DNA of 61,770 nt, counting the filler, from Choristocarpus tenellus KU-1152 (taxonomy: Eukaryota > Protista > Phaeophyceae), in NCBI GenBank assembly GCA_964200185.2. It is 13 parts of 13 records of this genome, joined end to end, with 100 filler letters (N's around TTAATTAATTAA, not from the genome) between each part and the next. Parts side by side here need not be neighbours in the genome. Positions count along the whole stretch, not along the records: positions 49,221 to 53,934 come from CAXNAD020013367.1; positions 54,035 to 56,657 come from CAXNAD020026190.1; 11 more parts are not named here. One strand, 5' to 3'. Of this stretch, positions 6,730 to 61,770 are shown one piece after another; the first letter of the stretch is position 1, and every line of letters starts with the position of its first letter. The translations under genes and the position numbers were made by a program. The notes under the pieces were generated by a model. It did not search any database. It saw nothing but the letters and a program-made list of their open reading frames with translations, and was not told the origin of the DNA.

Positions 6730-6987
6730 GAGTCACAGTATCTTAGAGGGTAAAGCCGCGTCCATTTGGGACCAAAATCCAATGTTGCAATTTAGATGTA
6801 ATTTCGGCTATCATGTTTGTTAGGAGATATCAATACCCTTGTTCCGGACACACCTTTTCATAACGTATACATATTACCTACTCCGAAACATTTTTGAGTA
6901 GGTGACATCTCATTAAAACCTCGTGGGAAGCCAAGCCCCAAACGGACAAAAAGAGAAAAACTCGTACCCTCTAAGATACTTTCACTC
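6730..6987. mobile_element. MITE family A, full copy
   Basis: Closely similar to 5864-6122, with TSD ATTT/ATTT. Removal restores the CRE frame (SRTKMPD). Confidence 0.92.
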
Positions 6988-7768
6988 ATTTTTGTTCTGG
7001 ACAAGGGTTGTGTGGAAGCCCATGCATTTGCCCCTTGTCCACACTGGCTCCGGTGGCAAGCCAGGGCTAGCGAGGAACTTACTTCCCTTGTTGAGCCTTG
7101 TCAGGTAAGTGGACGAATTGCATCCAGAAAGAGTCGAATCGGATCCTGTTTTTAGGACACCGGTGATCTCGTGTTGTACCCTCCTTGTTATCCTGGTGTC
7201 ATGGTCATGTCATCTATATTATCGTTCAATTATATGGATGGTGGTAATGGGAAGGTATCTCTGGCATTTCTGTGGTGTGGTACTGTCGTAATTGCTGTTG
7301 AAGTGTTTCTTACATATCGACGTTATGGTATACATATCTTGCAGTCAGCCCTGTTGTAATATTCTCACGGTACGGTAAAACGTCTAAACAACGTAGTCAG
7401 ATCTGCGGTAATCATTACCATGACGAGCCTTGATTGAATTTCTCTACAGAATCAAACTCCCATGCTGATATACGTGCATTTACTTTTGAAGTTACATGGT
7501 ACAGTAGTGTTCAGAACAAGGTATCATGTTGTGTTCAGGTTGAATCCGACTATCGTGGTAAGATCGATGTTTGGATGTGGAACCGTTGGTTGTCCGTTTC
7601 TTCAGATGTTGCATGGGTTGAGGTGGTCTTGGCTAGCAATTCTCAGACGGGTTGTTTTGGTGGCATGCGATTTGCACTTGTATTAATATATTGACAATCC
7701 AACACTTTCACCATACTTGGATTAATGAGATGCTCAGCAAGGTGCTTCATTTCCCGTCTTGCCATGAA

Positions 7769-7948: not shown

Positions 7949-9002
7949 TGAAGCGGTTGTGATTGACAGATGTATATCCTTTGTATTAACGGCCCACTTG
8001 CTCACTATTTCCCTTGTTCTGTGCATCACCCTAAAACAGCACTTCAATGATCAGCTGGTTGCATCATGTGAGAGTGACCAGTGTGGAGATGTAAGGGTTG
8101 TGCTGGACTCTCTGGGAGAACGAAGGAGAAGATAAAAGATGTCTTTTATCATTTGCGTGGAGGTGGTTTCCTTTTGGTATATCTTTGTCCCTTTTTCAGC
8201 TTGAAACTTGGCAGATGAATTCATTTCTCTATGCACAGTCAAGGCCTTCATGCTGAGAAATGCATTTTCTGTTTCAATCTTACATGCGCAAAGTGTTCAG
8301 AACGAGCTACTATTTATCAATAGTGTTTAGTTTTAATCTTACTAAACTGGTAGGATCGATACTGGATGTGAAAGCCTTGGTTGCCTTTTCCCGAGATGTG
8401 GATAGCTTTATTGAGAGCTCATGAAATATGGGACTCGTGGCCACGCTTGAAAATAGGAATTTGGTTCGCCATAAGGATTATTCACCCAGTAAAATGGGAC
8501 ACTCTCTCGGAACCAGTCACTAACGGTGCTAAGTCAGATTGCATCACTGCCTCTACTGTACTCAAGTTTACTCTATGTGATAAAATAAGTCATTGTTCTG
8601 TCCTACTAGGCTATACAAAACCGATCATGGATTTGTCACTCAGTGCTGTATGCTTGTACCATCACTCACAAGAGAATAGTTTACTGTGACACCCTCCTCC
8701 CCTTCGTCATAAAGTAAATGCAATATACACAAACACCCAATCGCAGCACAGGTAGTGCTTTGGCAAATTCATCTAAAACATCACATGCTGCCTAAAACGT
8801 TCACAGGCAGATTCTTGGATCAACATATCTGTGCAAAATAGGAAAATTGTGAGGTGTACCTTATTTTGTGTATATGAGATTATTGTGTTGAATTGATTCC
8901 ATNNNNNNNNNNNNNNNNNNNNNNNNNNNNNNNNNNNNNNNNNNNNTTAATTAATTAANNNNNNNNNNNNNNNNNNNNNNNNNNNNNNNNNNNNNNNNNN
9001 NN

Positions 9003-9081
9003 CCAAAATTACACCAAAATCGCAACATTTGATTTTGGCCCCCAAATGGACGCGGCTCTACCCTCTAAGATACTTTGGCCC
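9003..9081. mobile_element. MITE family A end, abutting Copia gag at contig start
   Basis: ...GGACGCGGCTCTACCCTCTAAGATACTTTGGCCC matches the family A terminus. Confidence 0.85.
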
Positions 9082-12000
9082 GTTCCTCCTTCTACAAACG
9101 GCGAAGGGGTCTGCATCAACAATAGTGGCGAAATACGAAAATGGAGGTCAACCAGACGGCAGAGGGGCATGGTTAGAACTAGAAGGAGTCTACAGTGGAC
9201 GCGCAGAGGACGAGATCCCCGTACAAGTCATCACCTTGGAGGCGAAACTCCAAGAATTACGGTGCACGGCGTCTCAGGACAGCACCGATTTTGTCGTTAA
9301 ACTCGAACAGCTATTTTTGGAATTCAAGGAGCTCAAGGAGCCCAAATCCGAAAACATGAAGAGGGCATCTATACTGCTTGGGATCAAGGAAGCGATGCCA
9401 CATGTGTTCGTGCAATTAATAACGCGCCCGGAAATCAGCTATGAGGAGCTCAAACGGGCAGTCATCTCGTCGACGACTTATCTTCACTCGGGTCAAGATG
9501 GTCATGATGGGGTATTGGCAGTGCATGGCAATGTAATGAACGGCCATGCTCGGAAGACCAGGGGATCAGCTGGAAGCGGCCTCAAATCAAACAATGTGGA
9601 TATTGCTTAAAGATGAACCATCGATGGCAGAATTGTTACTCATACTTCTAAAGGGAAGCCACCTGCAACACGTCCTCGCCTGGGATGGCACCCGCAACAT
9701 TTCCGCCACCTCGAACTCGTGGGAGCAGCAACAAAGTCGATGGAAACCAAGCGCGCTCCTTCTCCACTTTCAAGGTGACAGCAGACGAGGAGGTTAACAG
9801 AAGTGCTGTGTTCAACTCCTCCAGTGGAAGACAAGTCAAGATATTTTGTGACTCTGGAGCAAACGTACATCTTACACCTGATCGTGAAGATCTCGTAAGC
9901 ACTCAGGATACCAAATGCACATGCACCTTTGGAAACAATGGGAAATTAGAAGAGAAGGAAACTAGGGATATGGTTCTAATGGTGACGGACAAGGACGGCA
10001 AACCAACAAGTGGTTCTGAAGGATGTTCTATGGGTTCCAGGTCTACCATGCCGCATATTGAGTACTGGAAGTATACGACGGAATGGAGGGGAGTTTATGG
10101 ATTCAGGAACAAAAGAAATTTATCTGAGGGCCTCCAAAAATTCGCCTAAGATAAACCTACAAAAGTCGGGGGGGTTCTTAAATTTAACTGGAACCATAAT
10201 CTCCATGGAACAAGAATCGAGAGCCAGCGCTGCACGAGCCAACCAAAAGCAGAGGCTGACATTGAGGGACTGGCACAACATATTGGGACACATCAACCCA
10301 TCAGCAATGAAGCATCTCGAGAAACGTGGACCTCTAGAAATCACCGACGCTACTGTGGCATCAGAACTGCAATGCAAGACCTGCAAGGAATGCAAGTCCG
10401 AGGCCCTAAGTTATCAACGGGGTGGCAGGACCCCCAAGCAGCCCGACAAGGTTATCCACACAGATTTGGCGGGACCTTTTAAAGCAGACATCACTGGTCA
10501 CCAATATTTTCAGGTGTTTGTTGAAGAGAGCAGCCGAGACAAGAGGGTGTATGGATTGAAAACGAAAAACGCAGCGACGGACGCAACCGCTGCTTATATC
10601 AACCAGATGGCCAGGGAAGGTATACCAGTCAAATTAATCAGTGGGGATGGTGCTGGCAAGCTTGGGTGATTGTTGAAGTTCCAAAGGATGCTGGCGAACA
10701 ACGGTACCCAACGGAGGAAATCTCCACCGAGAATACCACAGAGCAACAGAATCGCCGAAAGGGCGATAAAGCAACTCATGGGGGCAGCAAGGAGTCAACT
10801 GGCAAAGGCTGGGCTGGGTGATGAGTATTGGTTCTTTCCCATCACGGACGTCGCCTTCAAGACTGGAGGCATGCCACGCGAATACCTGGGTGGAGAGACA
10901 CCATGCGAGCGTCTAACAGGTAAAACTTTCAACCACGATAGGCTTCGGGCCTGGGGGAGCGAGTGCTATGTTCACCAGGACAAGCAGCAGATAGGAGCCG
11001 GTTCAAAATTTCACCCATACGCCAAGCGAGGTATAATCACGGGACACGACCGTACATCACTATGTTGGTACATCTGGCTTCCTCAAGAGGCCAAGTTGGT
11101 AATAGCCCACGTGACGTTTCAGCCAGACGAACACATCATGAACTTCGTGGGAGAGAGAGAGACCATGACTTCAACGGGTAATGAAGAGATTTCTGATACT
11201 GAAGACGGTTCTGATCGGGATTTCGATATTGCAGTCGATCCGATACCACAAGCTACAGCCATGAGCCAGAACTCGACAAGTTCACCTAGTGGACAACGAA
11301 GGTCAGCCAGGATAGCTGAACAACCCAGGGTGGACTACAGGGGTTTACACTCGGAGATACAGAAGAACTGGGAGAGAATATAGTGAATCTGCTCAGAACA
11401 AGCACGGATGATGCATACTGTTTGATGGGCATCGCAGGTGACATCTCAATAGGCCACCAAGAGCCATCGATCATCGCAGAAGTCCTCGCAGGGCCTGATG
11501 CAAAACACTGGAAAGAGGCAATGGAACAAGAAATGGAGAGCCAACGAAACAAAGGAACCTTCCATGAGGGAGAGAGTCTGCCCACCAGGGAAGAGACCTG
11601 TCAAAACAATATTCATATATAAAATCAAAAGGACAGCCTATGGAGACATTGAAAGATTTAAGGCCAGGCTGGTGGCATGGGGTTTTTCCCAACAAGAAGG
11701 GGTGGACTACTTCAGCACGTTCAGTCCAGTGGTGGGATTTGACGTGATTCAGGCAGTCCTGGCTACAACAGCTAACAGAAACTGGATCATCAACTCCCTA
11801 GACTTCACTCAAGCCTACCTGAACGCACCACTCCCTGAAGATGTATGACTACAACTGCTCAATGGATCCATCGTAAAAGCTGCCAGGGCCATCTATGGCC
11901 TTAAGCAATTAGCAATGGAGTGGTACAAGGAGCTCAAGGGAACAATCTTAGCTGAGGGGTGGAGTGTTAGCGACTTTGACGCCTGCCTATATGTGAAAAG

Positions 12001-12740
12001 GAGTGAAGATGGAAGGATCGCTATCCTTTTTCACTACGTGGATGACATCTCATTGACTGGAAACTTTCACGAGAACATAAAGAGGATGAAGAGCAATCTG
12101 CTTACCAAGTACAAAGGACAGTACCTCGGAACCCCGGACAAGTTAGTTGGGGTGGCAATCAACAGGGATGAGGCTGGCATCACACTAGACCAACATTTCT
12201 ATGCAGAGAGGATTGTTCGCGAAGGAATGGGATCCACAGAAGTACAGAGTACCTCATCACCCTTAAACCCAGGAATAGACCTGACCACAAGAAGAAATGA
12301 CGAGGAGGAGCTGGACCAGAGGTACAAACCTTACCGCACCATCCTGGGGAAACTTATGTTCCTAGCTGGGATGACACAACCAGACCTATCCTTCAGTGTA
12401 CGGGAACTGGGAAGATATGCAGCATCTCCCTGTGATCAACACTGGAAAGGACTACAACATATTCTATGATACCTAGCGGGCACCACGAAAGTAGGGATAC
12501 ACTATCCTGCTGGTGGTGAAATGGAAAATGGGGGCCTGGTCAGATATGGAGACTCAGACTGGGGCAATGACACTGCATCAAGGCGGAGCATGACAGGGTA
12601 TCTAATACTCATTAATGGAGCACCTGTTGCATGGAAATCCAAGATGCAGGGAGCTGTAACCACATCTTCATCAGAGGCGGAATGGACAGCGATGGTGCAT
12701 GGAATGAGGCATGCAATATTCCTCAGAGGCATCCTGGGGG
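9082..12740 (+). mobile_element. Ty1/Copia LTR retrotransposon gag-pol, degenerate
   Basis: Copia domain order: gag, protease IFCDSGANVHLT, GAG-pre-integrase WHNILGH..CKTC, integrase IHTDLAGP/ISGDGAG/NRIAERAIK, RT KARLVAWGFSQQEGVDYFSTFSPV and HYVDD, RNase H YGDSDWGND..SRRSMTGY..SSSEAEW. Several frameshifts and stops; LTRs lie outside the contig. Confidence 0.97.
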
Positions 12741-17378: not shown

Positions 17379-17924
17379 GTGAGACCTCAAGGTACCTGGG
17401 GATGCATCAGGCCATCAGACAACTACTTTCATACCCCTATTAGCAAAATGATGACATGAGTCATAGTTATGAATTGTTATGATTCTTATGTGTCTTGTGA
17501 CCTACAGAGCATCTCCCCAATCCACAGGTGCAAAATCCAACTGAACTTTAATGGAAGAATTTGACCACAAATGGATACAATAAGGAGCTATGTGCTAGTG
17601 TTTGTCTTTCACAATGCACCCATAATACATGCCTTCTAGTAGTGTCAAGTTTAGGGTTAGATGTGTGTTGTATCTTGTATATGCTTAGTACGGCAGTTGA
17701 CTGCTGTTGGACTTCATAAGGTCAAACGTATCTGGGGGGGGGGGTGGTTTGTGAGGGGACGTCCNNNNNNNNNNNNNNNNNNNNNNNNNNNNNNNNNNNN
17801 NNNNNNNNTTAATTAATTAANNNNNNNNNNNNNNNNNNNNNNNNNNNNNNNNNNNNNNNNNNNNTTTCGGTCATACCCATCCTCAATAGTACGCTCCATC
17901 CTCAATTTTTAAAATCCACTGTTA

Positions 17925-18053
17925 AAAGGTGTGTCTGGAACTAGGATATTGAAACTTCCTAACAAACACGATAGACAAAATTACATCAAACATCGCAACA
18001 TTGGATTTTGACCCCATATGGACGAGGCTCTACCCTCTAAGATACTTTGACTC
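17925..18053. mobile_element. MITE family A, partial
   Basis: Reverse-orientation match to the 5864-6122 copy, ending AGATACTTTGACTC. Confidence 0.85.
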
Positions 18054-18577
18054 TTTGTCCCCTATTTGTCTTGTGTATTTTAATACCTACCCACAGTAGT
18101 CAAGTGACAGCTGTGGTGTTATATGCAGCCTGGCCTTTGATAGAGGAGCTATTAAGCCAGGGAGAGATTTTTTTTGTGTATATGTCACAGGCGATATGTC
18201 TTGATGGCCGTTTCATAAACAACATTATGACATTGAAGTTCGATATTTGATATATTTGTACTTCTTGATTATTTATTTATTATTTGGTCATTATGGTCCA
18301 CGATTGTGATCGACATTGTTGATCAGTCCCTTTTGATACCATTTTATTTACGATAATCCAAGTGAGAGATCCAGCATACTTGACGACTTGTGCATCAGGA
18401 GTCCTATACCTACATCAGTATCATATGTAAGACCATGGATTGGAGCTATACATCCTGTGGAGGTGAGCATCGAGGGGCGCCTGTAACATATATGGTATGG
18501 GCGTTGTAAGGGAGTCAACTAATTGGTGCTACTCTGTTCCAAGGATTCACTTTAGGCGTTGCACTAGGGATATTTCG

Positions 18578-30300: not shown

Positions 30301-32566
30301 GGGATTTGAAAGGTCAAGTTGGACCTGAGATCATTTTTCGTGAGGTTTTCTACGAAGAATATATTGTGGGAGTCTCTACGCATAACCTCAAAAAGCAGGG
30401 TAGTGAGGCATGCGTCATTGTTTTCCCTGCTCCTTGTATAGGAAGTGAACTACTAGTACCAAAACACTGCATCTTCTCGACACCAACCTGGAAAGGCAGG
30501 CAAAACCATCTTCTTTTTGACTTGCATGATCGACCCAGGTGAGATTGTAAGAGTAATGGCCTTGTAAATGTTGCAGATAAAGTGCCCATTTTTCTCTGTA
30601 AGTTCAGGGGGGGAATATAGTACTTTATAACAACAGGGTAGAACAAGTAGCCCATTGCATCTTCTCATGAGACTTCAGACATGTTCAGGATTATCTTTTC
30701 CGTCTCTCTTCGTTTATTGCACCATGAAAAGGCGTACACATAATACTGTACTACTTAGATTAAATTACATTATGCACTTTGATGTATAGTGTACACCTGT
30801 ATAGTTTCTTCGAAATAGGTTTACCTTTTATGTGCAAACTTGGATCTAACTCTTTGTCAGTTTCAATGTTTTTTTTTTGTTGAAACGGTATGTAGTACAG
30901 TACATTTTGGTGGATGCCACAAGAAAGGATTACCTCAAGTTTGAAAAAGATGCGATATAGAATGCTCCAGAGTATGTAAAGGATGCAGGAATATGTAAAG
31001 GTGTAGTAAGTAATCCATGGGGGAAAATACCACCTGTCAATTTGATCTATTGTGCTGTTTGTGCAGATCTAAACTCCTGTTTGTGTCAGTATGGAAGAAG
31101 AGAAAAGGAGATGGGACATTCACACAATTCCTCCTTGGTGAACATGATGAGGTGGTTGAAAAGAGAAGAATGATATTATTATGCATGGTGGAGGTTGGTT
31201 TAGCACCTGTTGCTTGTAGAAGTGCTACAAACATAATTCTTCCAGAAATTCCATCAAGACATAGAAAAACGTCTCGGACGTGGACTTCAAAACCCAGAAT
31301 TGATTCTCCATAAATATCCCACTAAGATATGAACTATGATCTCGAATGTTTTTTGTTGCATATTAGTGAAAGTTGTATCGTATTCTGCACACTGTTGAGT
31401 TGCAAGCCCTCGGGCAGTTGATTGCATAGCAGCTATTTTTTTCTTACTACAGAGGATCGTGAAGAGGATATCACCATAACTATGTAGATATAAGTGATGA
31501 AGTGCTAGAGATAAATGGAAAGGTTGACGCCTTCTGAGCACTTGTTCGACTGTATAGGCCTCACAAGGGAACGCTCTGGTGTGTTTGTGCCATGCAATGT
31601 TCTGCACGGTATATCAAGGCACTTGCACGATGGTTCATTGCATGTTTCTTTTAAATCTCCATTGGATAACATCATCCTCACATGAGGCAGAACAAGGATC
31701 ACCATTTTCACTGATGGATTGCGTTTCTTTACCACAAACTCCATTTTGCCGTCCAATACACCACTAAGTTATCAAGACACCTATAGAATGTGCTGTCTTG
31801 ACATGGATAAACGTATCATGTGCTATCCGTTCCTGACCAGTAGCATCAGAATTGCTGACGTCAATGGTACGGCAATGTACGCAGGGGGAAACATGTGTAC
31901 ATGCTACTATCGCCCTGGTTATGATGTTTCTATACCTCTGCCACCTAAGCGAGGGGCAGACCTCAGCATTTACCAAGAAACAGCCGCACCAGATAGGAAA
32001 TACTTCCTAACGTTCAAGGTACAGATACAATTCTTCTGCCTTCTACATCGAGCAGTGCCGCCTAGAAGCCTCTAAATCTATGAGAGTAGGCACAGTCAGC
32101 ATTTACCAATGGTGTTATCTTGCATTGCTCTGAAAATGTTTTATAGTGGAGAATACATAATGAGATTTTCTCGATTGAATAACTTTACTGCCGACGTTAA
32201 TCAGCCATGTTGAGCCTTTTCCTCTTTTTTGTGATTGGTTGTAGTGTTTTGGAGATGGCCCCATCTTTCCTTTGGCAATGTCCATAACTGCTACCTGTTC
32301 CTGCCATATTGCATGCTTGGTAGGGAAGCTTATATACGGGAAGAAGAACCGGCTCGATAGATCGAGCAGCAGCATATTTGCTTGGTGAACTAACTGTTGG
32401 TGATGATGATGTCGTAATCCTTCTGGAATGCAAGAAGGACAACATCTGTGAGGGTTTTGAACATCTGGGTGTTTCGTACAATAACTACGAATACCATGAC
32501 CTGATGAACTCGACATTTGCTCTCATTCCTGGTGGGCATTCACCAGCTACGTTTCGCCTTGCAGAA
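30301..32566 (+). CDS. Exostosin-like glycosyltransferase (GT47), partial; exons ~30301-30538, 31841-32018, 32324-32566 (cut by a MITE)
   Basis: Motifs EACVIV, WKGRQNHLLFD, YRPGYDVSIPLPP, RKYFLTFKG, YHDLMNSTFALIPGGHSPATFRLAE. Intron phases are consistent. Confidence 0.88.
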
Positions 32567-32798
32567 GAGCGAAAGTATCTTAGAGGGTACGAGTTTTGCC
32601 CTGTTTGTCCATTTGGGGTCTGACTTCCCATGGCATATTTTTATTAAATTTGCCTACTCCAAAATGTTTTGGAGTAGGTAAAATGTTTAAGTTATGAAAA
32701 GGTGTGTCCGGAACAAGGATATTGACACTTCCCAACAAACACGATCGCCAAACTTACATCAAAATCACATCATTGAATTTTGACCTCAAATGGACGAG
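32567..32798. mobile_element. MITE family A inserted in the exostosin exon, truncated by contig end
   Basis: Begins GAGCGAAAGTATCTTAGAGGGTA directly after the codons for RLAE. Confidence 0.9.
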
Positions 32799-36493: not shown

Positions 36494-39400
36494 GAATGGC
36501 TCTTTGAACCCAAGACCCATATTCGAGGAAGTCCCTTCACTGTTCAAGTCCAGCCAGGAGCAACCTTCGGAAGGGCTTGCCTTGCATGGGGTCCAGCATT
36601 ACATAATGGCACTGCCGGCGAGACTACATCATTGACAGTGCAAGCTCGAGATGTCATCGGCAACATTGTCGTGGAGGAAACCAATCATATCGACAGGGAG
36701 TTGCTTGTGTACAGCTTCCACAAGGAACAAGAGGTAATACCTCGTTGACCCCCATGAAGATAGGGACAGCACAAAAACGTTGACCAACAAATCGTTGCCT
36801 AACTTGAACAATGATGGCAGGTGTACTATGTGGGGGAGGTTCAGGGTCCAAGCAATGCTTCTGCCAATGGTACCATTAACATCACAGTGCTTCCAACTGT
36901 GACCGGTCCCTACATGCTAGATATCTCGTTAGGAGGAGAGGTGCGTCATTTTGCCTATCGACTTCTGTGGCGAAGTTAATACGTTGAAGCATTCTGTATT
37001 TCCAAACAAAAATATTTGGTGGAAGCATACGTGTTCAAGTATATTATGTATTCCAATTTCATGGATAGTGTTCATCATCATCACATTATCACAATTTTCT
37101 AGTCAATTGCACCAAATATAGTCCATGGTGAACACTCCTGCCCTCATCGACCTAGTTGCCACACCCTCATAGCCTCCAGCACATGGAAAAATAACCCATG
37201 ATGAGGACCAACAAATCGTTGTGCGTAACAACAGCAAAAAGTTGTTATTCCTCATGTTCAAGTTGATATCACCTGTTGGAGGTGTACAGAAACTGAACTC
37301 ATTGGTCGGTGCACCTCCATCAGTCTGCCAAATTTGAGCACTGCTTGATGCTTCCATTTCGAAAAAAAACAACTCTCCTCTCCCCAACCATCCCCCACTC
37401 CATTTATTCAACCACGCAGGCTGTGGCAAACAGTCCATACTCAGTCCTAGTTCGTCCAGGAGAAGTGTATGGGCCATCCTCAGTGGCTTACGGATCAGGG
37501 CTATCCACATCAGTGTCCACTGTGGAGAACACAATCCATGTACAGGTACACAGTATATGGCATGGTTCATCTCTCACCTTACTCTTGAGGCCAAAGGCAA
37601 AGATCACACTCTATGCACCTCACAAACTTCCTGTCTTCCCATCCTTGGATATTTTCTCAGATCCTGACCTTTACCATATCATGGTCTTGTCACCGTCACT
37701 CCCAGTCTACCCTAGCCCCCGACACTACACCGGTGTTGTTGCTCAACTGCATCTAACTATGCGACTAGCTCTCCTTATTTTGGCTTGTGGTCCCCGATTC
37801 TACAATTGCCTCTTCATCATTCGTTTTTTTGCAAATGCTCTCTAAGGTTCGTGTATCCAACGTTGTTGAAGGTGAGGTGAGGTCAAGACTAACAATAAAT
37901 TTAAAACATGATCAATAATACTACTATCAAGACTGTGGGGGAAGTACATGTTGTGAGGGAAGAGGCTACTGTTAGCTGCTCAGTTGTGACCTGTATGCTA
38001 TTCAATCAGTGGGTTTTGCATGTTGCTCTTCATGTAATGTACCCTGTCACTCAACCGTGCAATGCACAGACCACCATAAGATAGATATCTCGCCTTGCTA
38101 ACATATACTCCTATCGATTTATTCATTTAATTGTGACCGTCCCCGCCCAAACAGATTTATAGTGTCAACTCTTTGTAACCTCGTTCCCCCATCCCATCTC
38201 GTCATCCACATTGAATTTGATCCTCCACGTACAGGCCAAGGATCGCTGGGGCAACAACCTGTGGGGACCCCACTTCAATGTGACAGCTGAGATTATCGAA
38301 GACAGCAGCAAGAAAAAAGCTTCAGTGGTCCACTACACCAATGGATCTGGACTTGCTCTTGTGTCATACATTCCCCAAGAGATTGGAATCAGATCCCTTG
38401 CCGGTGAGGATTGGGGTGTGTAGTCAGGGTTAGTGTTCGGGCTGAATGAGAAAAAGGTATTTGAAGGTCTGTGGCCATGAAAAAAACTGAATTGAAATCT
38501 GGAGTGCAATGTTGAGAGGGTAAGTCGAAGTATGAATGCTTTCAAGTATAACCTGGTCATAGTTGGGTGGTAGTGGGAAATGCAAAGTAGAGGCATTGGG
38601 GCAATGTTGGAAGGTGATGTAGAAGTGAAATGAGAAGGGGGGGTTCAACCTTAGTTCTCTTGGGAGTGCGGCTTGGGGTGGTTACAATATCTTCAGGTTA
38701 ATTGCTAGTGGGTACTCACCGAGAACCGAGGCAAAACAAATTGATTAGGAATGACTCTCTTGACGAGTATGGGAGCATTTTGACGGTATCATATTGTATC
38801 ACCCCCCCAAAAAAGGCATTTGTTTTGTTGGTTCCCTATTCTCACAACCAGTGCCACAGCAATTTCAAGTGAATACTGATAATGCAGAGTCTCAAGCCTT
38901 GTGTGTGTGTGAGCAAATTTTATTGCATTAATGACCCTCTCCCACCTGTGCAACCAAAAAATATGTACGTGATTAACATATTTTCAGAAATATGGTCGGA
39001 ATTTAGTAGTGGCAAACACTACAGGAACGAACATTCTCTCCAGGAACCCAATGAAGAACATCTTCCTGAGTTGGTCTTTTCGATTGTTCTCAAAGGAAAT
39101 GAAATGTTTTGCAACTCTGCAGTATGTCTACAGTGCTTCCATATGCCATACTGCCCTTCCAAGTCCATCGTACGACTATGAATACCATCGGAAAACGACA
39201 AAGATGGAGTGCTTGGCAAGGCCAACTGCAACACAGAGATCTAAAATTTGTACCGCTGCTCAGTCGAAAACCTAAGGTTTATGCTGAGGATATACGGGTA
39301 GTGTCCCTTCTGTAGCCAAAACACTGTTCCAGTGCCATATTTCGTCACCCACGATTTATCTTACCACTAACTCCTTCATACATTTTTTAATTTTGAGAAA

Positions 39401-41778: not shown

Positions 41779-42037
41779 GTGAGGGTGAAGGCAGCACGAT
41801 GTGGCTACTCTGTCAGGCTGCAAGAGATGTAGGGAAGGCTTGAAGAAAAGCTCGACCAATTCCAATTCCACCAAAGGAAGGAAATTGTACATTCTGGACT
41901 AAAATGGACTACTCACTGAAGAAACATAAATTTTTCCCCAAACAATCGAACTACAATTAAAATAGAAATATTTGGACGCAATTTTCTTTTTCAAGGGCCA
42001 GTGTTGATAGATGACTTTGTTGTCACTTTGTACTGAT

Positions 42038-42298
42038 GAGTCAAAGTATCTTAGGGGATAGACCCGCATCCGCTCGGGGACCAAAATCCAATGTTGCTAT
42101 TTTGATGAGATTTTGTCTATTATGTTTGTTAGAAAGCGTCAATGTCCTTGTTCCAGGCATGCCTTATTAAGACATACATTTTACCTACTCCAAGACATTT
42201 CGGAGGGGGTATAATATCATAATAACTTATGGAAAGTCAAGCCCCAAACGGAAAAACAGGGAAAAACTGTCCACAAACCCTTCAAGATGCTTTCACGC
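42038..42298. mobile_element. MITE family A, full diverged copy
   Basis: GAGTCAAAGTATCT...AGATGCTTTCACGC with flanks TGAT/CGAT. Confidence 0.88.
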
Positions 42299-43402: not shown

Positions 43403-43451
43403 CTTTGGCCCCCAAATGGACGCGGCTCTACCCTCTAAGATACTTTGGCTC
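43403..43451. mobile_element. MITE family A end overlapping the FNT stop codon
   Basis: GAGCCAAAGTATCTTAGAGGGTAG on the minus strand reads EPKYLRG* in frame with the last FNT exon. Confidence 0.88.
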
Positions 43452-46400
43452 TGTGGTCACATGCTGCCGCTCGTCACCTTTCCCCCCCTCTAGTGTATTA
43501 CCGGCTGCTACAAGTTGCGTTATCTCTCTGTTGGCAGCACCATGACCGTTGAACTCCCAGAGGGTGTCCTCATAGTGGACGTGAAGGAAGAAGAATGGAC
43601 CTGCTACCATGACCAAGGCACCAATGATGTTTCCAATAGATGCAGGTACGATGTTCCACAAAAACGCCTGTGCAAGGAACAAGTAGGCAGTGCTCATAAA
43701 TTGCAGATATTGAAGGTGTTTTGTGTAATAGGATATCTCCTCATTCTATCAAAATAAGATAGTGTGCTGTCTGTCAGACATCCGTATTCACTGTCCCAAA
43801 GGAAAGTGCCACTGTAGAAATGATCCTCGGAAAAGAAGTCCATTGGCCTGCAAGCACCTGTCTATTAAGGGGGGTATTGTGGTAAGGGGAGTGCGTACCT
43901 GTGTTGTGCCAATAAACCGGCTCATGCATGGAACGTACGACGATGGTATAGAAAGTATTTCCCACCTGTGCGTTAAAAGAAAAAGGCAGCTGTCATGTGC
44001 CTCTTGCCTCACCTCTTCCCAAGTCACTGGGGGGTTGCTCATTGTGATCAACCCAATGCTGAAGTAGCCCATATTGGCTGTGGTGTGCTGAGCACCTAGG
44101 GCAACGAAGCCCAGCACTGGAAAAAATATGCCAACCAGCATGCCAGGAAGGGTTCTGTTGTTGTTGATCACGAAGAGAATCAGCATGGGAAATATGTCCT
44201 CGGTTAGTCAACCTCGCGAGAGGGGGTGAAGCCTTGGTAGACATACCCTGGGGGGATGATTGGAGTGACGATTCTTCGGTATTTAACATGTCACAAGATG
44301 AACCACTAACCATATATGCCGAAATTTTCAATTTTCTCCATGCGAAAATAGGCTTTCAGCTGTCGGGGTGCCATGTCAAAGATATTCCAGCAAGAACAGG
44401 TCATCTCAAACATCAATCGTCAAGCAAAAGGGTAAAAATTCGTCAAACTTAACTTAGCTGTTTTGCTTCACATAGTCTGCACACCTAGTATACTGAAAGC
44501 AAGCTTTAGTTCTACCTGGAGTATTATCCAAATCAATACTTCTAAACTACTATTTTTTCTTCTTACTTCAGTGGAAGGGAGATCACAGACAATACTGAAA
44601 AAATTGCTTTGGTGCCTTGTACATGGAAGTACATTGATCGTCACCTTGCCGATGATGCCAGAAGAACTGCCATGCCCACAAGCCAATTCCCAAGGAAGGC
44701 CGAAGCCACAACCTGCAGAAGCCCAAATAATCGAAAAATACGACAGAAGAGAACAGCAGGGGCATAATCGAGAACTCTCAGGGTTGGCCTGTTGAGTAAT
44801 CCCAGAAGAAAGGAAAAACATCATCACAATGTTGAGATGGGGGTTAGCCAGGAGATAGGAGCATTAGGGGCAGCAGACTACCGATAGAACTGAATTCTCT
44901 GTTTCAAAGAGAAAGCTCTAAAAGACCGAAATTTGTGAGGCATTTAAGACAATATTGCTTCCAAGGGAAAGCACTAAGCTGTGCAATTGAAATTGAAGTA
45001 ATTATATCCTGAAACACCTACAATAATGATAGTGGCACCATAGTTTAGTCCAATCCCAATGTGTCTGACTCTGTAGCGTGAAAGATCGCACATGCTTGTA
45101 CTGGGATAGTAGAGCTCTATCATTCAACACTAACTCCAGACAAACACACATTATATATATTTCCAATAGTAGCCATTTTCTATGCACGAATGTACAGATG
45201 ATGTCTTAGAGCACATAGGCATACATGATAGTGCACTTGTGACAAACTTGTGCTCACCTCGAACAACTTAGTCCTTCCCAAGGATGTCTATTGAAGATTT
45301 CATTATCTCTTGTGGACAAAATCAAGAACTCTACTATACTGAAACCCTACAGTCAAAGGTATTATATAGGTACTAGTGAGTGGTAGATCTCTATTATTGA
45401 ACTGGTCTCGACGCCTGCCTCATGGCCACGGCCTATCAATCGCCAAACCACCAACTCACAGCTTCATGATGATCATTCTATCAACTTCGAGGCAGGGGAA
45501 GGCAACGGGTTGCAAGGCTTGTCTCAAAATCATTACGAAAGAGTAACTATCCATGAAGTTTGGGCTATTGCATGTACCTCAAACCACCCCTCAGTGCTGT
45601 TATCCTTGAATTTGTCGACCTTACTGGTGAGGATCTCTGCCAGACGTTCCTTCGCCTCATTTGTCATAACATGTCCCGCTTTCATCATGGCAGCCACAAA
45701 TAGCGCACCAAGCAAGTTGAATATCCAAACCCACATCCAGAACCGCAAACACTTCTGGAAGGCGTGAGGCACGCAAATCATGGGCGACACGTGAGGTCGA
45801 AAACTGGATGTTTTTGGCAATTCTCCCTCTCTCTCCCCTGCTCGCCGAATCCCTTTTCAGTGTTTCCTACGTAGAGTCAACAGAATTTGAAAGCTAGAAG
45901 ACATGGGCAGCATAATGAAATATAGTCGAACATAGACTGTCACACAACATGTGCTTGCACAGAAGTTCTACTCTGCACAGGAAGATCGAAATTCCTCCAA
46001 CTCGTTCATTGGAATTCCGTCAGTCACGAACGGGCTTACCTGGCAGTGCTGCCAGATGTGAGATCTGTTTTTTGTTGAGGACAATGCCCCACCTTCAATG
46101 TCCTTGGCATACGCATGACTGCCACTCCCCAGAGTCAGCATCCACACCTGTAGTCACAGGGATGGCCTCAGAGAATTAATGAAGATAGGTAGAGAAAGAA
46201 AAGCACCTCAACCTGGGTTCACCACGCTGTTGTTCGTTTTGGTGGGTGAGAGATACCGCTCACCGGTATTGCCACGATGACTGCGGTGAACAGTGCAGTT
46301 CCTGTTGTGACAACGAGAAAGAAGCCCCCAACGAACCCGAGACCCATCAGAAGATTTTCCATCCCAAGAGATTCCGCCCCTTGACTGAGGAAGACAGACA

Positions 46401-46590
46401 AGGCAGCTCCAAAAGCGATGAAGCATCCAGCCAGAACAGCACCGACGGCTTGGATTCCAGGAGGCTTCGAAATTAAGATACTGCCTTGCTCAGCCAAGGT
46501 TAAATATGTATCCATTGGTGATCTGCGATAGTCAGACTGTGATCGTCGGTGCAGAGCTTCGTGTACCTTGTCACTAATAATCATGGTCAT
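43428..46590 (-). CDS. Formate/nitrite transporter (FNT family), ~353 aa; exons 46590-46264, 46147-46040, 45754-45578, 44712-44645, 44154-44013, 43667-43428
   Basis: All five introns are GT-AG with matching phases. FNT motifs LAGCFIAFG, GTALFT, FNLLGA, LGNWLVGMA, FFPVLGFVALGAQHTTANM, IGNIIGA. Confidence 0.93.
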
Positions 46591-46824
46591 GGTTATGTCT
46601 TGAGAAATCGCGTGGTGGAAGGAGCAAAGTCGTAGAAATGTCGATGAGGGGGAACAGCTGCGTGTCTATCACGAAGTTCAATGAACTTTAGGTGCTTTTC
46701 CATTCCCCAATCTGATAAATCTCAATTTGCAGGATGAAGGTTGCGAGGTTCAATGTGGCTCGATTAAAACAGAAAAGTAATAAATTGATACCATAATGGG
46801 TAAGAACTGAGAGATGCTGGGTAT

Positions 46825-47005
46825 GTGACATTATATATTATGCCCTTTGACATTTTGCAGATGTGTCAGGGGGAAAACCAATAATGTCTTACAGTATTCT
46901 TATGTTTAGGACATTTTATATACACATATGTATATAGTTTTCATTGGTTTCCCCCTGACACATCTGCAATATGTCATTATTAGACCTTAAGAAATAAAGA
47001 TACAG
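46825..47005 (-). mobile_element. CRE-like 3' tail copy with internal inverted duplication (~35-bp arms 46848-46883 / 46943-46976)
   Basis: TGACATTTTGCAGATGTGTCAGGGGAAAACCAAT versus ATTGGTTTCCCCCTGACACATCTGCAATATGTCA; flanks match 28770-28870. Confidence 0.7.
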
Positions 47006-47044: not shown

Positions 47045-47319
47045 TGTAACGTCTCTTCATGAGTATGCTTTTCCGAAGACGGATCTCCTATCTCTGAAGG
47101 GTTTCTTTTCTGAAACCCATCCGAATCGTGATCCTCCCCACTTCCTCAGTAGTTCCTCACTTTTTCCTGTAAGTCCTTTCAAATCTTCCGCTTGTCGAAC
47201 CATAACCCTGTCCTCTCGGTTACGGTTCGTCTTCGTCCGTCTGGTTCGTCTTGCCCAGTGATTCTCTTTACCACCCTTGCCTGAGTGAGGTACACCACCA
47301 CATAATCACCCGATTCATA
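47045..47319 (-). repeat. Dispersed LTR-like repeat body without the tRNA segment (copy 3)
   Basis: Reverse complement aligns with 54961-55125 and 61726-61770 starting exactly at TATGAATCG. The distal boundary is uncertain. Confidence 0.75.
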
Positions 47320-47858: not shown

Positions 47859-48036
47859 TCATCCTGCCTGTCACTAAACCACAAAAGGAAAAGGCGGAGA
47901 ACTTGAACTGTGGTGGCAAAGCCTCATCGGTCACAAGAGTAAGATACAGGTAACGACTTGATATATATGTTCATTTATACACCACAGTTCAAGTTCTCCG
48001 CCTTTTCCTTTTGTGGTTTAGTGACAGGCAGGATGA
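47859..48036. repeat. Perfect 57-bp inverted repeat with 64-nt spacer
   Basis: Arms 47859-47915 and 47980-48036 are exact reverse complements. Confidence 0.93.
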
Positions 48037-49045: not shown

Positions 49046-49120
49046 TGTTGAAACACTAGTAAACCCCTGAGCTACCGAGCAGATAGTCACACCGACTATC
49101 TGCTCGGTAGCTCAGGGGTT
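49046..49120. repeat. TGTTG-starting mini-element with perfect 27-bp hairpin, cut by contig end
   Basis: AACCCCTGAGCTACCGAGCAGATAGTC-ACACC-reverse complement. The first 43 bp recur at 50457. Confidence 0.8.
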
Positions 49121-53434: not shown

Positions 53435-53693
53435 GTTTGAAAGTATCTTAGAGGTTACGAGTTTTTCCCTATTTGTCCATTTGGGGCTTGGCTTCCCATG
53501 TTTTTTTTAATGACATTTTCCTACTCCAAAATGTTTAGGGGTAGGTATAATGTATACGTTATGAAAAGGTGTGTCCGAAACATAGATATTGACACTTCCT
53601 AACAAACACGATAATCAAAATTACACCAATACCGCAACATAGGTTTTTGACCACCAAATGGACGTGGCTCTACCCTCTAAGATACTTTGGCTC
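53435..53693. mobile_element. MITE family A, full copy (reverse orientation)
   Basis: GTTTGAAAGTATCT...AGATACTTTGGCTC with flanks ACT/ACT. Confidence 0.9.
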
Positions 53694-54905
53694 ACTTTTA
53701 CAGCCCTGATAAAGAAACAAGATTATTTTTCAAATTTTCATTTATTATAGGTGCACACAATCCAAGTGGCAACTGAGGTTTGGCAAGAGACTGTTTTATT
53801 TGGGAAGGTGAGAATACTTCCACCTGAACTCAATACGGTGAGACAGAAATGAAACGGTTACCCACCAAAATCTCAACCAAAATGGGGCAGTCTACACCCA
53901 TCTGTGATTCCGTACCCGAAGCCCTCCAAATCTCNNNNNNNNNNNNNNNNNNNNNNNNNNNNNNNNNNNNNNNNNNNNTTAATTAATTAANNNNNNNNNN
54001 NNNNNNNNNNNNNNNNNNNNNNNNNNNNNNNNNNCCCTAGGATTTTTGAGTACTTCGTCCGGACCGAAACGGACGCCCCCTCACAAACCACCCCCCCCCC
54101 TAAGATACTTTGGCCCAGGTTGGAGTTGGTTGTGGTGTGATAGTTGAGAGGGTGATTTTCCTCACTAAAATCAAGTTACTTAGACATCCGTCCGTCCGTC
54201 GTCCAGTATATGGCTTGGGGGGCTATTTCTCCTCTCCCTGAGCGAGTTTTTTCACGGGAGAAGAAGAATCGTGATCCTCCATGTCTCACCTGTCTGTGTG
54301 TAACCCTAAAATCTTCATTGTTATTGTAACTCCACTGTTATGCCAAAAAGCTCATCAGCCAGCAGCCAGTCAGCCCTCCTCATTGAGCTTGGTCAAGAAT
54401 ACACGCTCTCCGTCGTAATCGCGACCCCTCCTTGATTTCTTGTTCCGCATTGATTGACTGGTCCACTCAACCAAGCACGAGTCCTCCTCTCGACACACAG
54501 CAATCACCAGCGCATACGCTCTGCCCAATCTCAGCCTTCGACTTCTGTGAAACTTGAAGCCTGGAAGTAGACCACACCATGATATTCAGTATGTCCTTCG
54601 ACAGAGGGGCTTCTGCAATCATTGTACCGAGTTCTGTGTAGACACTCTACGTTGTAGTGAGCTGCGTGCGAAGGTTAAGGTCCGAAAGCCTCGCACAGAG
54701 TGTGTTTCCAGGAACAAAATCGTCAAGGTGGACTCATCTTGATTAATTTCGAGGTATGTAAGGTGGGTTGATCGGTGATCTGCATATCAAATTAAAGCTG
54801 AGATCATAGGTAGTCGATTGGAGGAAAGAAGTCCTGTCACAAAAAAAAAGTCTTGAGATGATTTTCAACGATTTTCATTTTTTTACCAATTCAACTAACC
54901 CAACC

Positions 54906-54959
54906 CTGCTAAGTTTGTGTGCTTTGCACGCGTGAGTTCGAATCTCACCGGTGTCGCCT
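54906..54959 (+). pseudogene. tRNA-Ser(GCT) 3' half (anticodon loop to CCA-equivalent), fused to repeat body
   Basis: CTGCTAA loop, long variable arm GTGC-TTT-GCAC, T-arm GTGAG-TTCGAAT-CTCAC, acceptor 3' strand CGGTGTC, discriminator G, then CCT. No 5' half or A box. Confidence 0.85.
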
Positions 54960-54960
54960 A

Positions 54961-55373
54961 TATGAATCGTGTTATTCTGTGGCGGCATCGTTCACTCAGA
55001 CAAGGGTGGCGAAGAGAATCATCGGGTACCAAACGAAACAAGACGAACCGTAACCGAGAGTAAGAGGTTAAAGGTTGGACAAGTGGAAGATCTCAAGGAC
55101 TTGCAGGTAGAATTGAGGAGTGATGAGCATCTTCAGAGAGGGGGCTTCATCACCACCATTCAAGACATGAGAACAAACTGAATTTTTCATGTGTGACAAC
55201 TCTGAATGACGAGCTGTCCTGAGTCTATGGAATTGATCTCGCGAAGAGATTCCATGGTTTCATTCTAAAGGAAGGTCCGCCAATAGATTCATGGATGCTT
55301 GACAAGGAACTTCAATCTGTACATCGGTATAACGATATGACGGTATATTGAATACGGCAATAACGGTGTAACA
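54961..55373 (+). repeat. Dispersed LTR-like repeat body (copy 1)
   Basis: Homologous to 47145-47319 (-) and 61726-61770. A possible distal end GGTGTAACA reads TGTTACACC on the minus strand. Confidence 0.65.
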
Positions 55374-58300
55374 AAAGATAAACATGGTTTCCACATTTTT
55401 TGCATTTACTTACTCAACACAGAGTAAATTTGCGACCAGATTTTTTTGCCCCAATCGACACCATTTAATCTCAGCTTTAATTTAATATGTTGATCACCGA
55501 TCAGGACGCCTTACATCACCTCGAAATTAATCAAGGCCGGTCTGATCCTAGAGGCGACTGACTAGATACGCGATATCTCGTAGCTAGGGTGGTGAAGTTG
55601 GTTTGTGGCGATACACACTCAACGAGTTACCTTCTTGTTTGTACATCCTCCACACTTTGATCCAAGCCAATCGAGAGGTCGGCAGGTTTGGACCCTTTTG
55701 CATTACAAGCCATCTTTCTAACCCTGTGCAATACTCTATTTCATTGCCTTATGTTGACAATAATGTACGCAAATCGATATTCCCCCTTTCCATCCACAAA
55801 GTGACACCACAATTTAGCAAAGGCTCGTTCTGCAATTCTAAAAATAGCATTTTTTTCCTTTTCTCAGGATCCTTAAAATGCCACCCTACCTACCTCTGAG
55901 TTGGTTTGACTCTTTGCCCATCCCCTCACCACCCAAACACTACTGTGTTTTTCTACCTTCACATTGGGACCACTACATTTCACTGGGCATAATTGCAAGT
56001 GTGGACACTACCTTACGGAAATTGTAGCACCGTGAATGCAGATGGGGACGATGAGATTAGACTGTGCTTTGATTGCCACACTCCCGAGGAGAAGAGTGAT
56101 GTGAGAAACAGTAGTGATGATGATAAGAGCCCATTGTGTGACGGCTTTCTTCGTCTCCTCCAACTGGAAACAGCCTTCTAGTCGCCGGCAAGTTGCGGCT
56201 GCCTGCCAAGGGGTCAGATATTTGGGGAAAGTTGCCAACATTGAAACGAATGTCCTTCACCCAGAAGGCAAAGTTCTGGACTTGCTAGCGGCACACAAGA
56301 TTAACCATGTCAGCATAGCAGAGCGATAAGGTGTTGGCTTGAGGATCATCACACTAGTTGGATTAAACAAGAAAGGTTTTCAGAAGCAAGCTTCATGTAA
56401 GTCGAAAAGTTCCACATGTTTGCAACTCATACGATTCACTCAGGTATGATATTGTGTCCCTGCAATGCTATGAGTGTGCAAGTAAAAATTGTTGGTGCAG
56501 AGAACAGGAACAACATACAGCACAACACCCGTAAGTCAAAGAACAGTCCGATGTATGACTGGGTCAAAGTATCTGGGGGGGGGGGGGGGGGGGGGGGGGC
56601 GGGGGGGGCGGCGTTTGACAAAACACTTCTTTTTTTTTCGGTCGCGGCGAAAAAAAANNNNNNNNNNNNNNNNNNNNNNNNNNNNNNNNNNNNNNNNNNN
56701 NTTAATTAATTAANNNNNNNNNNNNNNNNNNNNNNNNNNNNNNNNNNNNNNNNNNNNCCCCCAGATACTTTGACCCGGATCGATATCCTGACCTAGTGTA
56801 TACTTGTTCCAAGTATATATATAAATATAAAGGATAGCAACATCACCTCTTTCAGCCCATCTCAACTACGTACTATACATAACCAAGTAATCCCTGTACA
56901 AGTCCTAACTTACACACAGGCTCTACAAGCAGACCTGTTTTTCCTCTTTCGGAGTTGTTTGAAGTTTGACTCCTTTTATATATGTACAACCTACATCTTA
57001 CCATGATGCTACTTCACCTTGATATAACTACTGACTCTTGGCCTCGCGCGAATAGTCGATCGCGCGCCCGCACATAATTTTTAAGTATATAATTCTGAAA
57101 ATTATAGAAAACCATACCACCACTGACTCAATACAGGTACATTTTTCGCCCCTTCTTATGGACGTACCGTGTAAAACCAACTCATTTCTGTCTGTCCTTA
57201 CACCTGTCTGTCTGTACACGCCAGCATCGACTTTATAGAGCTATTTTTTCTCTTTGCGAGATATTCGGAGTTTCAGTCCTCTTAATAATGTACTATATTT
57301 GTATGTAGGTCAAATTTCGACAAAATACTGTGACTTCAACATAACCTCCATGTCAGGAAAGACAGTCACACCACACTCCCTCTTCTCCCCTGCCTAGCAC
57401 ACAGCCTTCAAGGGCTCCAGCCTCCCCCCCAGAGGGGCCTATTTATCAAAATTAACAATTCAGAACTACATATCTCAATGATGCGTTCACTTCCTAAAAA
57501 ATACACTACCACCAGCCGTGATGATGGCAACACTCGGTCAATTGATATCCTCATACAGAACAAATCAGAGTGGGGATGGTCACGATTGGGTTTGTGGTGA
57601 TGGTAGGACCTGTTGGACATGTCAATGCTTGCAATCTGTCAAGCACAACACTACATCAAAACTGAGAGGCCTTACATGAAGAATTTGATAAAATCTGATA
57701 GGTTTATCAATAACTACTTCCACAGTAGCAGGAAAGCATGGGTCATGGTAGATGCACAGATGAGTTGCACAATACAACAAACAAGCTTCAGTCAGCTTTT
57801 CTCGTGCCTTTGAGGGCTCAGTGCTGCAGTGTTGACCCTTCTACATTAGCCTCACCCCACAAGCTCATATTTACCGTAGGTACTATATGACAGCCTGATT
57901 AAACTCATGCCATAATTACTCTGTCAGCTGTCTGTGCAAATATAATGAGTAACGATATATCACCACATCATACACTTGACAAACAGGAGATTTGATGGTG
58001 TTGTACAGCATGAATCCGTGCAACACATCACACATCATTTGCATGACTAGGTGCTGCAACAGCGTGAAACGCAATTGAATAAGTCAAGGTCATTGTTTTC
58101 GCTGACACCACGGAGGAAAAATTACAATGATCTTCTCATTTGTGACAGCATTTCCATGTTTGAGGCAGCACCCAACAAACCACGTTGCATCAGGTAATAT
58201 ACAGCTTGGTCATAGGTTTGTATTTTGGCAGGTGCAACTGGCATTCACAAAATTAATTGTGATTGAGGAGATAAATTCCACATGCTGTACCAGTAGACTT

Positions 58301-61140: not shown

Positions 61141-61671
61141 CTACTATGTAAGAGAAAGAAATACCTACTGTATAGTACGAAAGTAACATCTGTACATAGC
61201 CTCTATATCTCCTCTACAATAAACAATTTGAAAATATTTCATGAAGAGGAAAAGAAGAATCATGAGGTAGAAAATATATCACTACAACAAGAAACAACAT
61301 ATAGACAGAACAGTACTCTAAATCACTAGAGAGGCAAACAAGACCCAACTCATGTCATAATAACAATAACACAATACTAATATACACTTATTTGTTTTTA
61401 CACAACTTATTTTTTCGGGTTAGGTTTAGGATTATAAGTGTTATTATTGTTTTTATGTTAATGGTGTGGTCATTACAACATTATTTGTTGGGTCCTATTT
61501 CAACCTCTCCATATTGGAAGTCCTTCCGATATACTAATATATATGCTGATGTTTGCTGGATGGGGAATGGGAACAAGGGTTAATGGGAGGAAGGTGGATT
61601 TGACAGGAGAAGAACTGGTGAACATGTCAAGACAACATTGAAAAGTTGGGGATTGGAACTGAGAAATAAAA

Positions 61672-61724
61672 TGCTAAGTTCGTGTGCATTGCACGCGTGA
61701 GTTCGAATCTCACCGGTGTCGCCA
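61672..61724 (+). pseudogene. tRNA-Ser(GCT) 3' half ending in CCA, fused to repeat body (copy 2; body 61726-61770 runs off the window)
   Basis: TGCTAA GTTCG T GTGC ATT GCAC GC GTGAG TTCGAAT CTCAC CGGTGTC G CCA, then A and TGTGAATCG. Confidence 0.88.
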
Positions 61725-61770
61725 ATGTGAATCGTGTGATTCTGTGGTGGCGTGGTTCACTCAGGCAAGG

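What the first reader, a model, noticed from the sequence alone, without database searches (positions are those of the whole stretch)
54901..55373. Repeat family fused to the 3' half of a mature tRNA-Ser(GCT): giant PBS, captured primer-cDNA chimera or nascent SINE
Seen: two copies (54906-, 61672-) carry ~53 nt of tRNA-Ser(GCT) from the anticodon loop to CCA (CCT in this copy), one spacer A, then a shared body starting T(G/A)TGAATCG. Their upstream flanks are unrelated. A third body copy (ending 47319, minus strand) stops exactly at that junction with no tRNA. Known: eukaryotic tRNA genes do not normally encode CCA, so the segment derives from mature tRNA. Read on the opposite strand the junction is ...CA-T-TGGCGAC..., the canonical LTR-end/primer-binding-site layout, but a PBS is normally 18 nt or less because RT stops at m1A58. 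Inference: RT read through A58 to the anticodon loop. The unit may then be tRNA primer plus minus-strand strong-stop DNA integrated as such, an LTR family with an unusually long PBS, or a tRNA-half-headed SINE.
Basis: partly seen in the sequence, partly recalled or inferred. Interest (0 to 1): 0.78.

Follow-up and report, generated by a model that had tools for sequence, protein, structure and literature searches.

The report
Retrotransposon ends carrying overshot primer tRNA
In a brown alga, a minority of copies of a common jumping-gene end (an LTR) carry a 53-letter backwards copy of the finished serine tRNA that primes the element, likely because reverse transcriptase ran past its usual stop and halted in the anticodon loop, so these copies are likely fossils of a copying by-product and not a new SINE or a giant primer site.

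Summary
Two loci carry tRNA-Ser(GCT) positions 33-76 with CCA, one spacer base, then the body; a third starts at the bare junction. The body is a whole 435-bp TG...CA LTR (54961-55395, element on the minus strand), not a SINE tail or R-U5 piece. Contigs of public runs show a normal 14-15-nt PBS followed by shared internal sequence, so the family has no giant PBS. They also show 23 contigs that start exactly at U33 with unrelated flanks, against 184 bare LTR ends (about 3-11% of ends). The unit equals an over-extended plus-strand strong-stop DNA: U3-R-U5 plus primer copy. The stop sits just before position 32 (m3C32, an RT block, in human and yeast tRNA-Ser; not shown for this alga) and leaves a new CA end. 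The one complete copy has no target duplication, which favours break repair over integrase there. Such overshoots are known in HIV-1 proviruses and as Ty1/Ty3 dead-end products; the fixed U33 end joined to host DNA is the new part. Parent tRNA gene, superfamily and TSDs of other copies could not be tested: no genome is held.

The parts
54907..54959 (+). Copy 1: DNA copy of mature tRNA-Ser(GCT), U33 to 76 (53 nt; CCA decayed to CCT). Its last 14 nt (54946-54959) correspond to the family's normal PBS on the minus strand
54960..54960 (+). One-base spacer between LTR end and PBS
54961..55395 (-). Copy 1: whole 435-bp LTR, U3 end at 55395, U5 end at 54961 (end decayed from CACA to CATA)
   Evidence: depth edge at 55395, pieces ending 55395/55396, purine tract beside the U3 end in one X3 contig; bare ends at the U5 side
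54901..54906 (+). Six bases absent from two empty alleles of the host element; filler, or decayed tRNA positions 27-32 (4 of 5 pair with 39-43 of this copy)
   Evidence: table 5c; suggestive only
54738..54843 (.). Left arm of the palindromic MITE-like element into which copy 1 is inserted
   Evidence: 87 of 107 identical to the right arm; empty alleles
55429..55535 (.). Right arm of the same MITE-like element
61672..61724 (+). Copy 2: tRNA-Ser(GCT) U33 to A76 with intact CCA; equals the majority form; joined directly to single-copy flank
   Evidence: (flank covered at flat depth 27.6 in X1)
61726..61770 (-). Copy 2: U5 end of the LTR, cut by the end of the window
47154..47319 (+). Copy 3: U5 side of a diverged LTR of the family with a bare end at 47319 and no tRNA; its U3 end was not found

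Best explanation
The unit is a whole LTR joined through its primer-site junction to a 53-base reverse copy of the mature primer tRNA-Ser(GCT), and it is likely the fossil of an over-extended plus-strand strong-stop DNA: reverse transcriptase likely copied the still-attached primer past A58, likely stopped just before a modified base 32, and the dead-end product was likely patched into host DNA without a second strand transfer. Shown: LTR ends, 14-15-nt normal PBS, CCA-containing tRNA copy, pile-up of starts at U33, unrelated flanks, no target duplication in the one complete copy, no substitution at A58. Inferred: that the primers lacked m1A58, that m3C32 sets the stop, that each copy is a separate event, and the insertion route (end-joining for copy 1; open for the rest). 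Because the PBS is shorter than the primer copy, the first plus strand cannot be used for transfer and would be displaced as in the Ty1/Ty3 recycling model, which would make such products common.
For: Anatomy U3-R-U5, spacer, anti-CCA, anti-tRNA to U33. Normal PBS of 14 nt (X2: 11 contigs, agreement 0.95; X1: 7 contigs, 0.69) or 15 nt (X3: 2 contigs) followed by shared internal sequence. 23 X1 contigs with loose ends at 54907, agreement 0.4, median length 255 like bare LTR ends; 7 of the 16 longest pieces start exactly at 61672 and 12 of 16 within 61668-61675 (some are the same locus in both runs). Related genes carry no CCA (0 of 12). m3C32 on tRNA-Ser-GCT in human and on tRNA-Ser in yeast (PMC11233606, passages) and m3C32 as an RT block (PMC7237682, passages). 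Dead-end plus-strand products accumulate in Ty3/Ty1 (PMC5371799 section 6); tRNA inserts of 7-54 nt occur in HIV-1 proviruses (PMC12657518, abstract and passages); Ty1 cDNA is captured at breaks (PMC7175516, passage).
Against: Only one copy is complete, so 'whole LTR' and 'no TSD' are n = 1. The host's own tRNA gene was not found; the 12 related genes have T, not C, at position 32, so m3C32 is not established here. Copy 1 may run on to position 27, and 4 of the 16 longest pieces start at 61689-61692 instead, so the stop is not unique. Loose-end tables are cut (579 and 135 rows not shown) and the U33 row is not among the 12 rows listed, so the full distribution of starts was not seen. A T50>A change shared by 18 X1 contigs could mean that some copies descend from one event. 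Reviews state that HIV-1 products running past position 54 cannot complete synthesis or integrate, so a non-canonical route is required.
Confidence: 0.75

Rival explanations
1. Same origin, but integrase does the insertion: the stop at U33 leaves a 3'-CA (complement of G34, U33), so the extended end of an LTR-length or full-length DNA is an integrase substrate; full-length insertions later collapse to LTR plus tRNA. (Variant of the route, not of the identity.)
For: The unit is TG...CA at both ends; starts pile up on one base; Ty1 integrase accepts foreign DNA that only ends in TG...CA (PMC2939329, abstract and passages); 3-11% of ends is a high share for accidental capture.
Against: Copy 1 has no 4-8-bp duplication at 0-1 mismatch within the offsets tested and has extra bases at both ends relative to empty alleles. 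U33-G34 gives a CA whether or not integrase acts; 5 of 35 positions between 33 and the T loop would give one.
Confidence: 0.3
2. The primer is a pre-cut 3' tRNA half (anticodon-loop cleavage), and RT simply runs off its end at U33; no modification stop is needed. (Variant of the stop.)
For: Gives the same sharp end; anticodon-loop cleavage is a general source of tRNA fragments (PMC13191261 abstract); related genes have T32, which cannot be m3C.
Against: Copy 1 and one hybrid contig have C before U33 (table 5c), and copy 1 may reach position 27, which needs a longer template.
Confidence: 0.25
3. Delayed second-strand transfer: the over-extended plus strand jumps to another place on the minus strand, so the 'flank' beyond U33 is element sequence, as in defective HIV-1 proviruses.
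For: Five X1 contigs join the tRNA end back to a point 19-45 bases inside U5, one of them as a hybrid that follows the internal sequence for part of the T arm before switching to tRNA (tables 5, 5c); published for HIV-1.
Against: Flanks of both window copies are host DNA: a MITE in register on both sides (copy 1) and single-copy sequence (copy 2, depth 27.6); loose ends at U33 are long (median 255).
Confidence: 0.12
4. A fixed subfamily or nascent SINE/TRIM whose repeat unit now includes the tRNA half and which spreads as such (Helenus-like, or tRNA-half-headed SINE).
For: Many copies with the same start; intact B box; T50>A shared by 18 contigs; six T follow copy 1.
Against: No A box, no tail; no multi-copy junction beyond U33 among the listed rows although the normal PBS junction is listed; joints at U33 are at single-copy depth; the T run lies in host MITE sequence.
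Confidence: 0.07
5. The family has a giant 53-nt PBS, or the unit is primer plus minus-strand strong-stop DNA.
For: Junction geometry is that of a PBS.
Against: Shared internal sequence begins after 14-15 nt; nothing shared follows U33; the body includes U3 up to the polypurine-tract edge.
Confidence: 0.04

Closest known systems
HIV-1 proviruses with tRNA-Lys3 inserts from delayed second-strand transfer (Hardy et al. 2025, PMC12657518; abstract and passages read)
   Same: LTR end, PBS, then continued reverse copy of the primer tRNA (7-54 nt) fixed in the host genome
   Different: There the insert is joined to downstream viral sequence and its length varies; here most seen copies end at U33 and the two window copies are joined to host DNA
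HIV-1 plus-strand strong-stop products P3-P5 (PMC13191261 section 10 read; PMC8599865 passages)
   Same: Read-through of A58 with stops at later modified bases, including the anticodon loop
   Different: HIV stop is at ms2t6A37 and products are seen in vitro; here the end is at U33 of tRNA-Ser and is heritable
Ty1/Ty3 dead-end plus-strand strong-stop DNA and its capture (PMC5371799 section 6; PMC2939329 and PMC7175516 passages)
   Same: PBS shorter than the primer copy, first plus strand is a dead end, such ends turn up at insertion junctions
   Different: 12 nt of tRNA there, 53 nt here; laboratory events there, dozens or more of natural copies here
Helenus / TRIMp3 (Kojima 2024, PMC10886601; parts 1-4 of 6 of the text read)
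   Same: tRNA-like sequence attached to LTR repeats
   Different: Helenus holds A and B boxes inside both LTRs and is not complementary to its PBS; here the tRNA part is the PBS extended outside the LTR, with CCA and without A box
Hypothesis that tRNA-SINEs arose from primer tRNA joined to strong-stop DNA (Okada group, 1990s; recalled, not read; one search did not return it)
   Same: A genomic tRNA-plus-LTR chimera in the predicted orientation
   Different: The tRNA lacks its 5' half and A box, so it cannot be a standard Pol III head

Membership tests
LTR retrotransposon LTR | TG...CA termini with short inverted repeat | tested here: met
   TGTG at the U3 end of copy 1, CACA at the U5 end of copy 2 and the majority form
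LTR retrotransposon LTR | PBS 1-3 nt from the LTR end followed by shared internal sequence | tested here: met
   14-15-nt PBS, 1-nt spacer, agreement 0.95 in 11 X2 contigs
LTR retrotransposon LTR | Polypurine tract next to U3 | tested here: inconclusive
   8 of 9 purines beside the U3 end in a single X3 contig
LTR retrotransposon LTR | Linked gag-pol giving the superfamily | not testable with these tools
   No genome; the Copia contig 9003-12740 holds no copy of this LTR; internal motif absent from the window
Integrase-made insertion | 4-6-bp target-site duplication | tested here: not met
   Copy 1 only; other copies not testable
Over-extended plus-strand strong-stop DNA | Whole U3-R-U5 followed by the complement of the mature primer from CCA inward | tested here: met
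   Copy 1
Over-extended plus-strand strong-stop DNA | End at a modified base of the primer | tested here: inconclusive
   Pile-up at U33, next to position 32; modification and identity of base 32 unknown in this alga
tRNA-derived SINE (SINE2) | Head with A and B boxes | tested here: not met
   No 5' half in either copy; loose ends at U33 have agreement 0.4
tRNA-derived SINE (SINE2) | A-rich or simple-repeat tail and variable TSD | tested here: not met
   Copy 1 ends at the LTR edge
Helenus / TRIMp3 | tRNA-like sequence inside both LTRs of a two-LTR element | tested here: not met
   Most family ends lack it (184 bare ends in X1); it lies outside the LTR
Giant-PBS element | Shared internal sequence after the long complement | tested here: not met
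   Agreement 0.4 after U33 against 0.95 after 14 nt

The most novel reading that the evidence does not exclude
In this family the primer tRNA-Ser lacks the usual A58 stop, so RT routinely copies to U33; because U33-G34 reads CA on the new strand, the overshoot makes its own integrase end, and LTR-length dead-end DNA is integrated directly as 'pseudo-solo' LTRs tagged with half a tRNA: a second, recombination-free source of solo LTRs and a genomic record of m3C32 in a brown alga.
Probability: 0.25. Interest if true: 0.75.

Novelty: new variant of a known kind. Interest (0 to 1): 0.5.

Why it matters
It shows that a by-product thought to be a dead end is fixed in a genome at a few percent of a family's ends, with a sharp end point. 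The copies make two questions testable from sequence alone: which primer modifications stop a retrotransposon RT in vivo (stop at 33, no error at 58), and whether integrase will use a CA end made from tRNA, which would mean some solo LTRs never were full elements. They also supply tRNA-plus-LTR chimeras of the kind proposed as SINE precursors, and can mislead tRNA and SINE annotation.

Tried and rejected
No genome held, so no genome-wide BLAST, TSD table or parent-gene search. ARAGORN and Rfam on the window: no tRNA. Junction patterns with CCA: 0 hits in metagenome contigs and 0 in viral contigs. Prokaryote scan for the tRNA 3' end: 1 hit, not a tRNA, so no sign of a bacterial CCA-encoding source. 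Internal 5' motif: 0 matches in the window at up to 3 mismatches. A 20-base hit at 38049-38068 (E 0.007) has no tRNA or LTR context and is taken as chance. Folding gives the variable arm and T arm but no significant z-score (-0.56 to -0.84). No RNA holder listed. Segmental duplication and recombination between PBS and a tRNA gene rejected: flanks unrelated and no 5' half. Summed contig depth is no copy number; I used only its ratio (tRNA part to body 0.039 in X1, 0.029 in X2). Ten paper searches listed no paper on tRNA-extended LTR ends in algae or on a U33 end; the library lacks most subscription papers and I read no supplements. Earlier-finding look-ups by sequence and place were empty.

Full report
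Context. The window is 13 short contigs joined by N spacers. A decayed Copia on one contig has its nearest named relatives in the brown alga Choristocarpus tenellus (83-89% for the top named hits) and other brown algae, so the source is a brown alga. No genome is held; genome-wide evidence comes from laying assembled contigs of public DNA-like runs on two stretches (runs X1-X3, one study, so not independent of each other and X1 possibly the source of the window).

Observation. Copies 1 (54907-) and 2 (61672-) share 99 bases at 90.9%: 53 bases of tRNA from U33 to A76, a spacer A, and the body; flanks upstream match at chance level, 9 of 40. Copy 3 begins at the first body base without tRNA. The three lie on different contigs. 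A scan for the T arm and acceptor strand returned 13 matches in 12 metagenome loci; 12 of 13 are complete intron-less tRNA-Ser(GCT) genes, identical to the window over the last 28 bases (21 set by the pattern), and 0 of 12 is followed by CCA. The CCA therefore points to a mature tRNA as template; the alga's own gene was not seen.

The body is an LTR. Depth in X1 falls from 14,282 to 112 at 55395 and pieces end at 55395-55396. The body is thus 435 bp and reads TG...CA on either strand. At its tRNA-side end, X1 shows 32 + 92 + 60 contigs and X2 21 + 66 + 33 contigs with unrelated flanks (agreement 0.41-0.43), i.e. ordinary LTR ends. A further class carries 14 bases of the tRNA complement and then a shared sequence (X2 11 contigs, agreement 0.95; X1 7 contigs, 0.69; 15 bases in 2 X3 contigs): a normal PBS and internal region. 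One X3 contig shows a purine tract beside the other end. In the internal consensus, three bases stand in register with the complement of T54-C56, like the primer over-extension sequence of lentiviruses (my reading of the consensus). The element runs on the minus strand at copies 1 and 2. Its superfamily is unknown.

The extended class. 23 X1 contigs have loose ends exactly at 54907 (U33), agreement 0.4, median length 255. Since copy 1 has C at 54906, these 23 are contigs that do not continue with C; the consensus shows no tRNA 5' half. Of the 16 longest pieces, 7 start at 61672, 5 within 61668-61675 and 4 at 61689-61692; at least three loci appear in both runs, and selection by length favours early starts. 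Share of ends: 23 of 207 (11%, mixing two calls) by contigs, 3-4% by depth ratio; two of three in this window is a lucky draw. The tables are cut, so other start points may be hidden. Six differences reach 2% of depth over the stretch; none is at A58 (61706), while T50>A at 3.4% is listed, so there is no visible misincorporation at 58. Five X1 contigs join the tRNA end back into U5 and one joins it to an inverted LTR end, each at single-copy depth.

Copy 1's site. It lies in the middle of a palindromic element (arms 87 of 107 identical) whose empty alleles were seen in X1 and X2 (table 5c). No duplication of 4-8 bases was found at up to 1 mismatch. Against the empty alleles the window has 7 extra bases, 6 on the tRNA side and 1 on the U3 side, and no loss. 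The six could be tRNA 27-32: 4 of 5 pair with 39-43 of this copy, which about 1-2% of window positions would do, but only 3 of 5 pair with the majority form, and the test is post hoc. If real, this copy ran on to the base after position 26 (a dimethyl-G stop in many eukaryotic tRNAs; recalled).

Mechanism. LTR, spacer, anti-CCA, anti-tRNA is the structure of plus-strand strong-stop DNA whose synthesis did not halt at A58 (PMC13191261 section 10). With a 14-nt PBS the first plus strand overshoots in any case; in Ty1/Ty3 it is displaced and accumulates as a dead end. The end at U33 is where m3C32 would block RT, but the related genes have T32, so a pre-cut 3' half is a live alternative. The end reads CA, the dinucleotide that suffices for Ty1 integrase, yet the only testable copy lacks a TSD, so break repair, known for Ty1 cDNA (cited there), is the better reading for it. 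A minority fits delayed transfer as published for HIV-1.

Comparison and verdict. It works like the over-extended products of HIV-1 and Ty elements and is not a SINE, a Helenus or a giant-PBS family by the tests above. Earlier unreviewed notes of this scan report the same kind of fossil in other genomes; they are leads only, but they lower the surprise. What stands out here is the sharp U33 end, the clean A58, the self-made CA terminus, and the lineage. New variant of a known kind; interest 0.5.

Noticed in passing
window, spacers at 3550-3649, 8903-9002 and ten more: The window is a concatenation of 13 contigs (2.6-7.5 kb) with N44 + 12-base + N44 spacers; neighbours across spacers are not linked.
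   Followed up: yes
window 9003-12740 (+): Decayed Copia gag-pol in several frames (gag, protease-like, pre-integrase, SH3, RVT_2), no LTR on the contig, 83-89% to top named Choristocarpus proteins. Not linked to the tRNA-Ser LTR.
   Followed up: partly
window 5861-6131, 6727-6991, 17922-18057, 32558-32798, 42037-42296, 53438-53694, 9003-9079, 43404-43455: A ~265-bp MITE-like family with ~18-bp terminal inverted repeats, at least 8 copies or pieces in 61 kb.
   Followed up: partly
window 61714, 61715, 61721, 61733: 4 of the 6 common differences among family copies are CpG transitions, suggesting CpG methylation of repeats; DNMT1 is reported kept in Discosporangium and lost in other brown algae (bioRxiv 10.1101/2024.02.19.579948, passage).
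   Followed up: partly
window 61698 (tRNA position 50): T>A in 18 X1 and 12 X2 contigs: a second isodecoder (a partner change at 64 would fall under the 2% cut) or a sub-clade of copies; unexplained.
   Followed up: no
window 61689-61692 (variable-arm loop): Second cluster of starts, 4 of 16 longest pieces; human tRNA-Ser has m3C47d in this arm, but the majority loop here has no C.
   Followed up: no
window 46222-46665 (-): Formate/nitrite transporter exon-like ORF (PF01226, E 1.6e-11) about 500 bp from copy 3.
   Followed up: no
window 46848-46976, 47859-48036, 49062-49120: Three further palindromic elements around copy 3; the first interrupts or ends copy 3's contig neighbourhood.
   Followed up: no
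L001-L007, L009-L012: Nuclear-type tRNA-Ser(GCT) genes from marine metagenome contigs all have T32-T33 rather than C32.
   Followed up: partly
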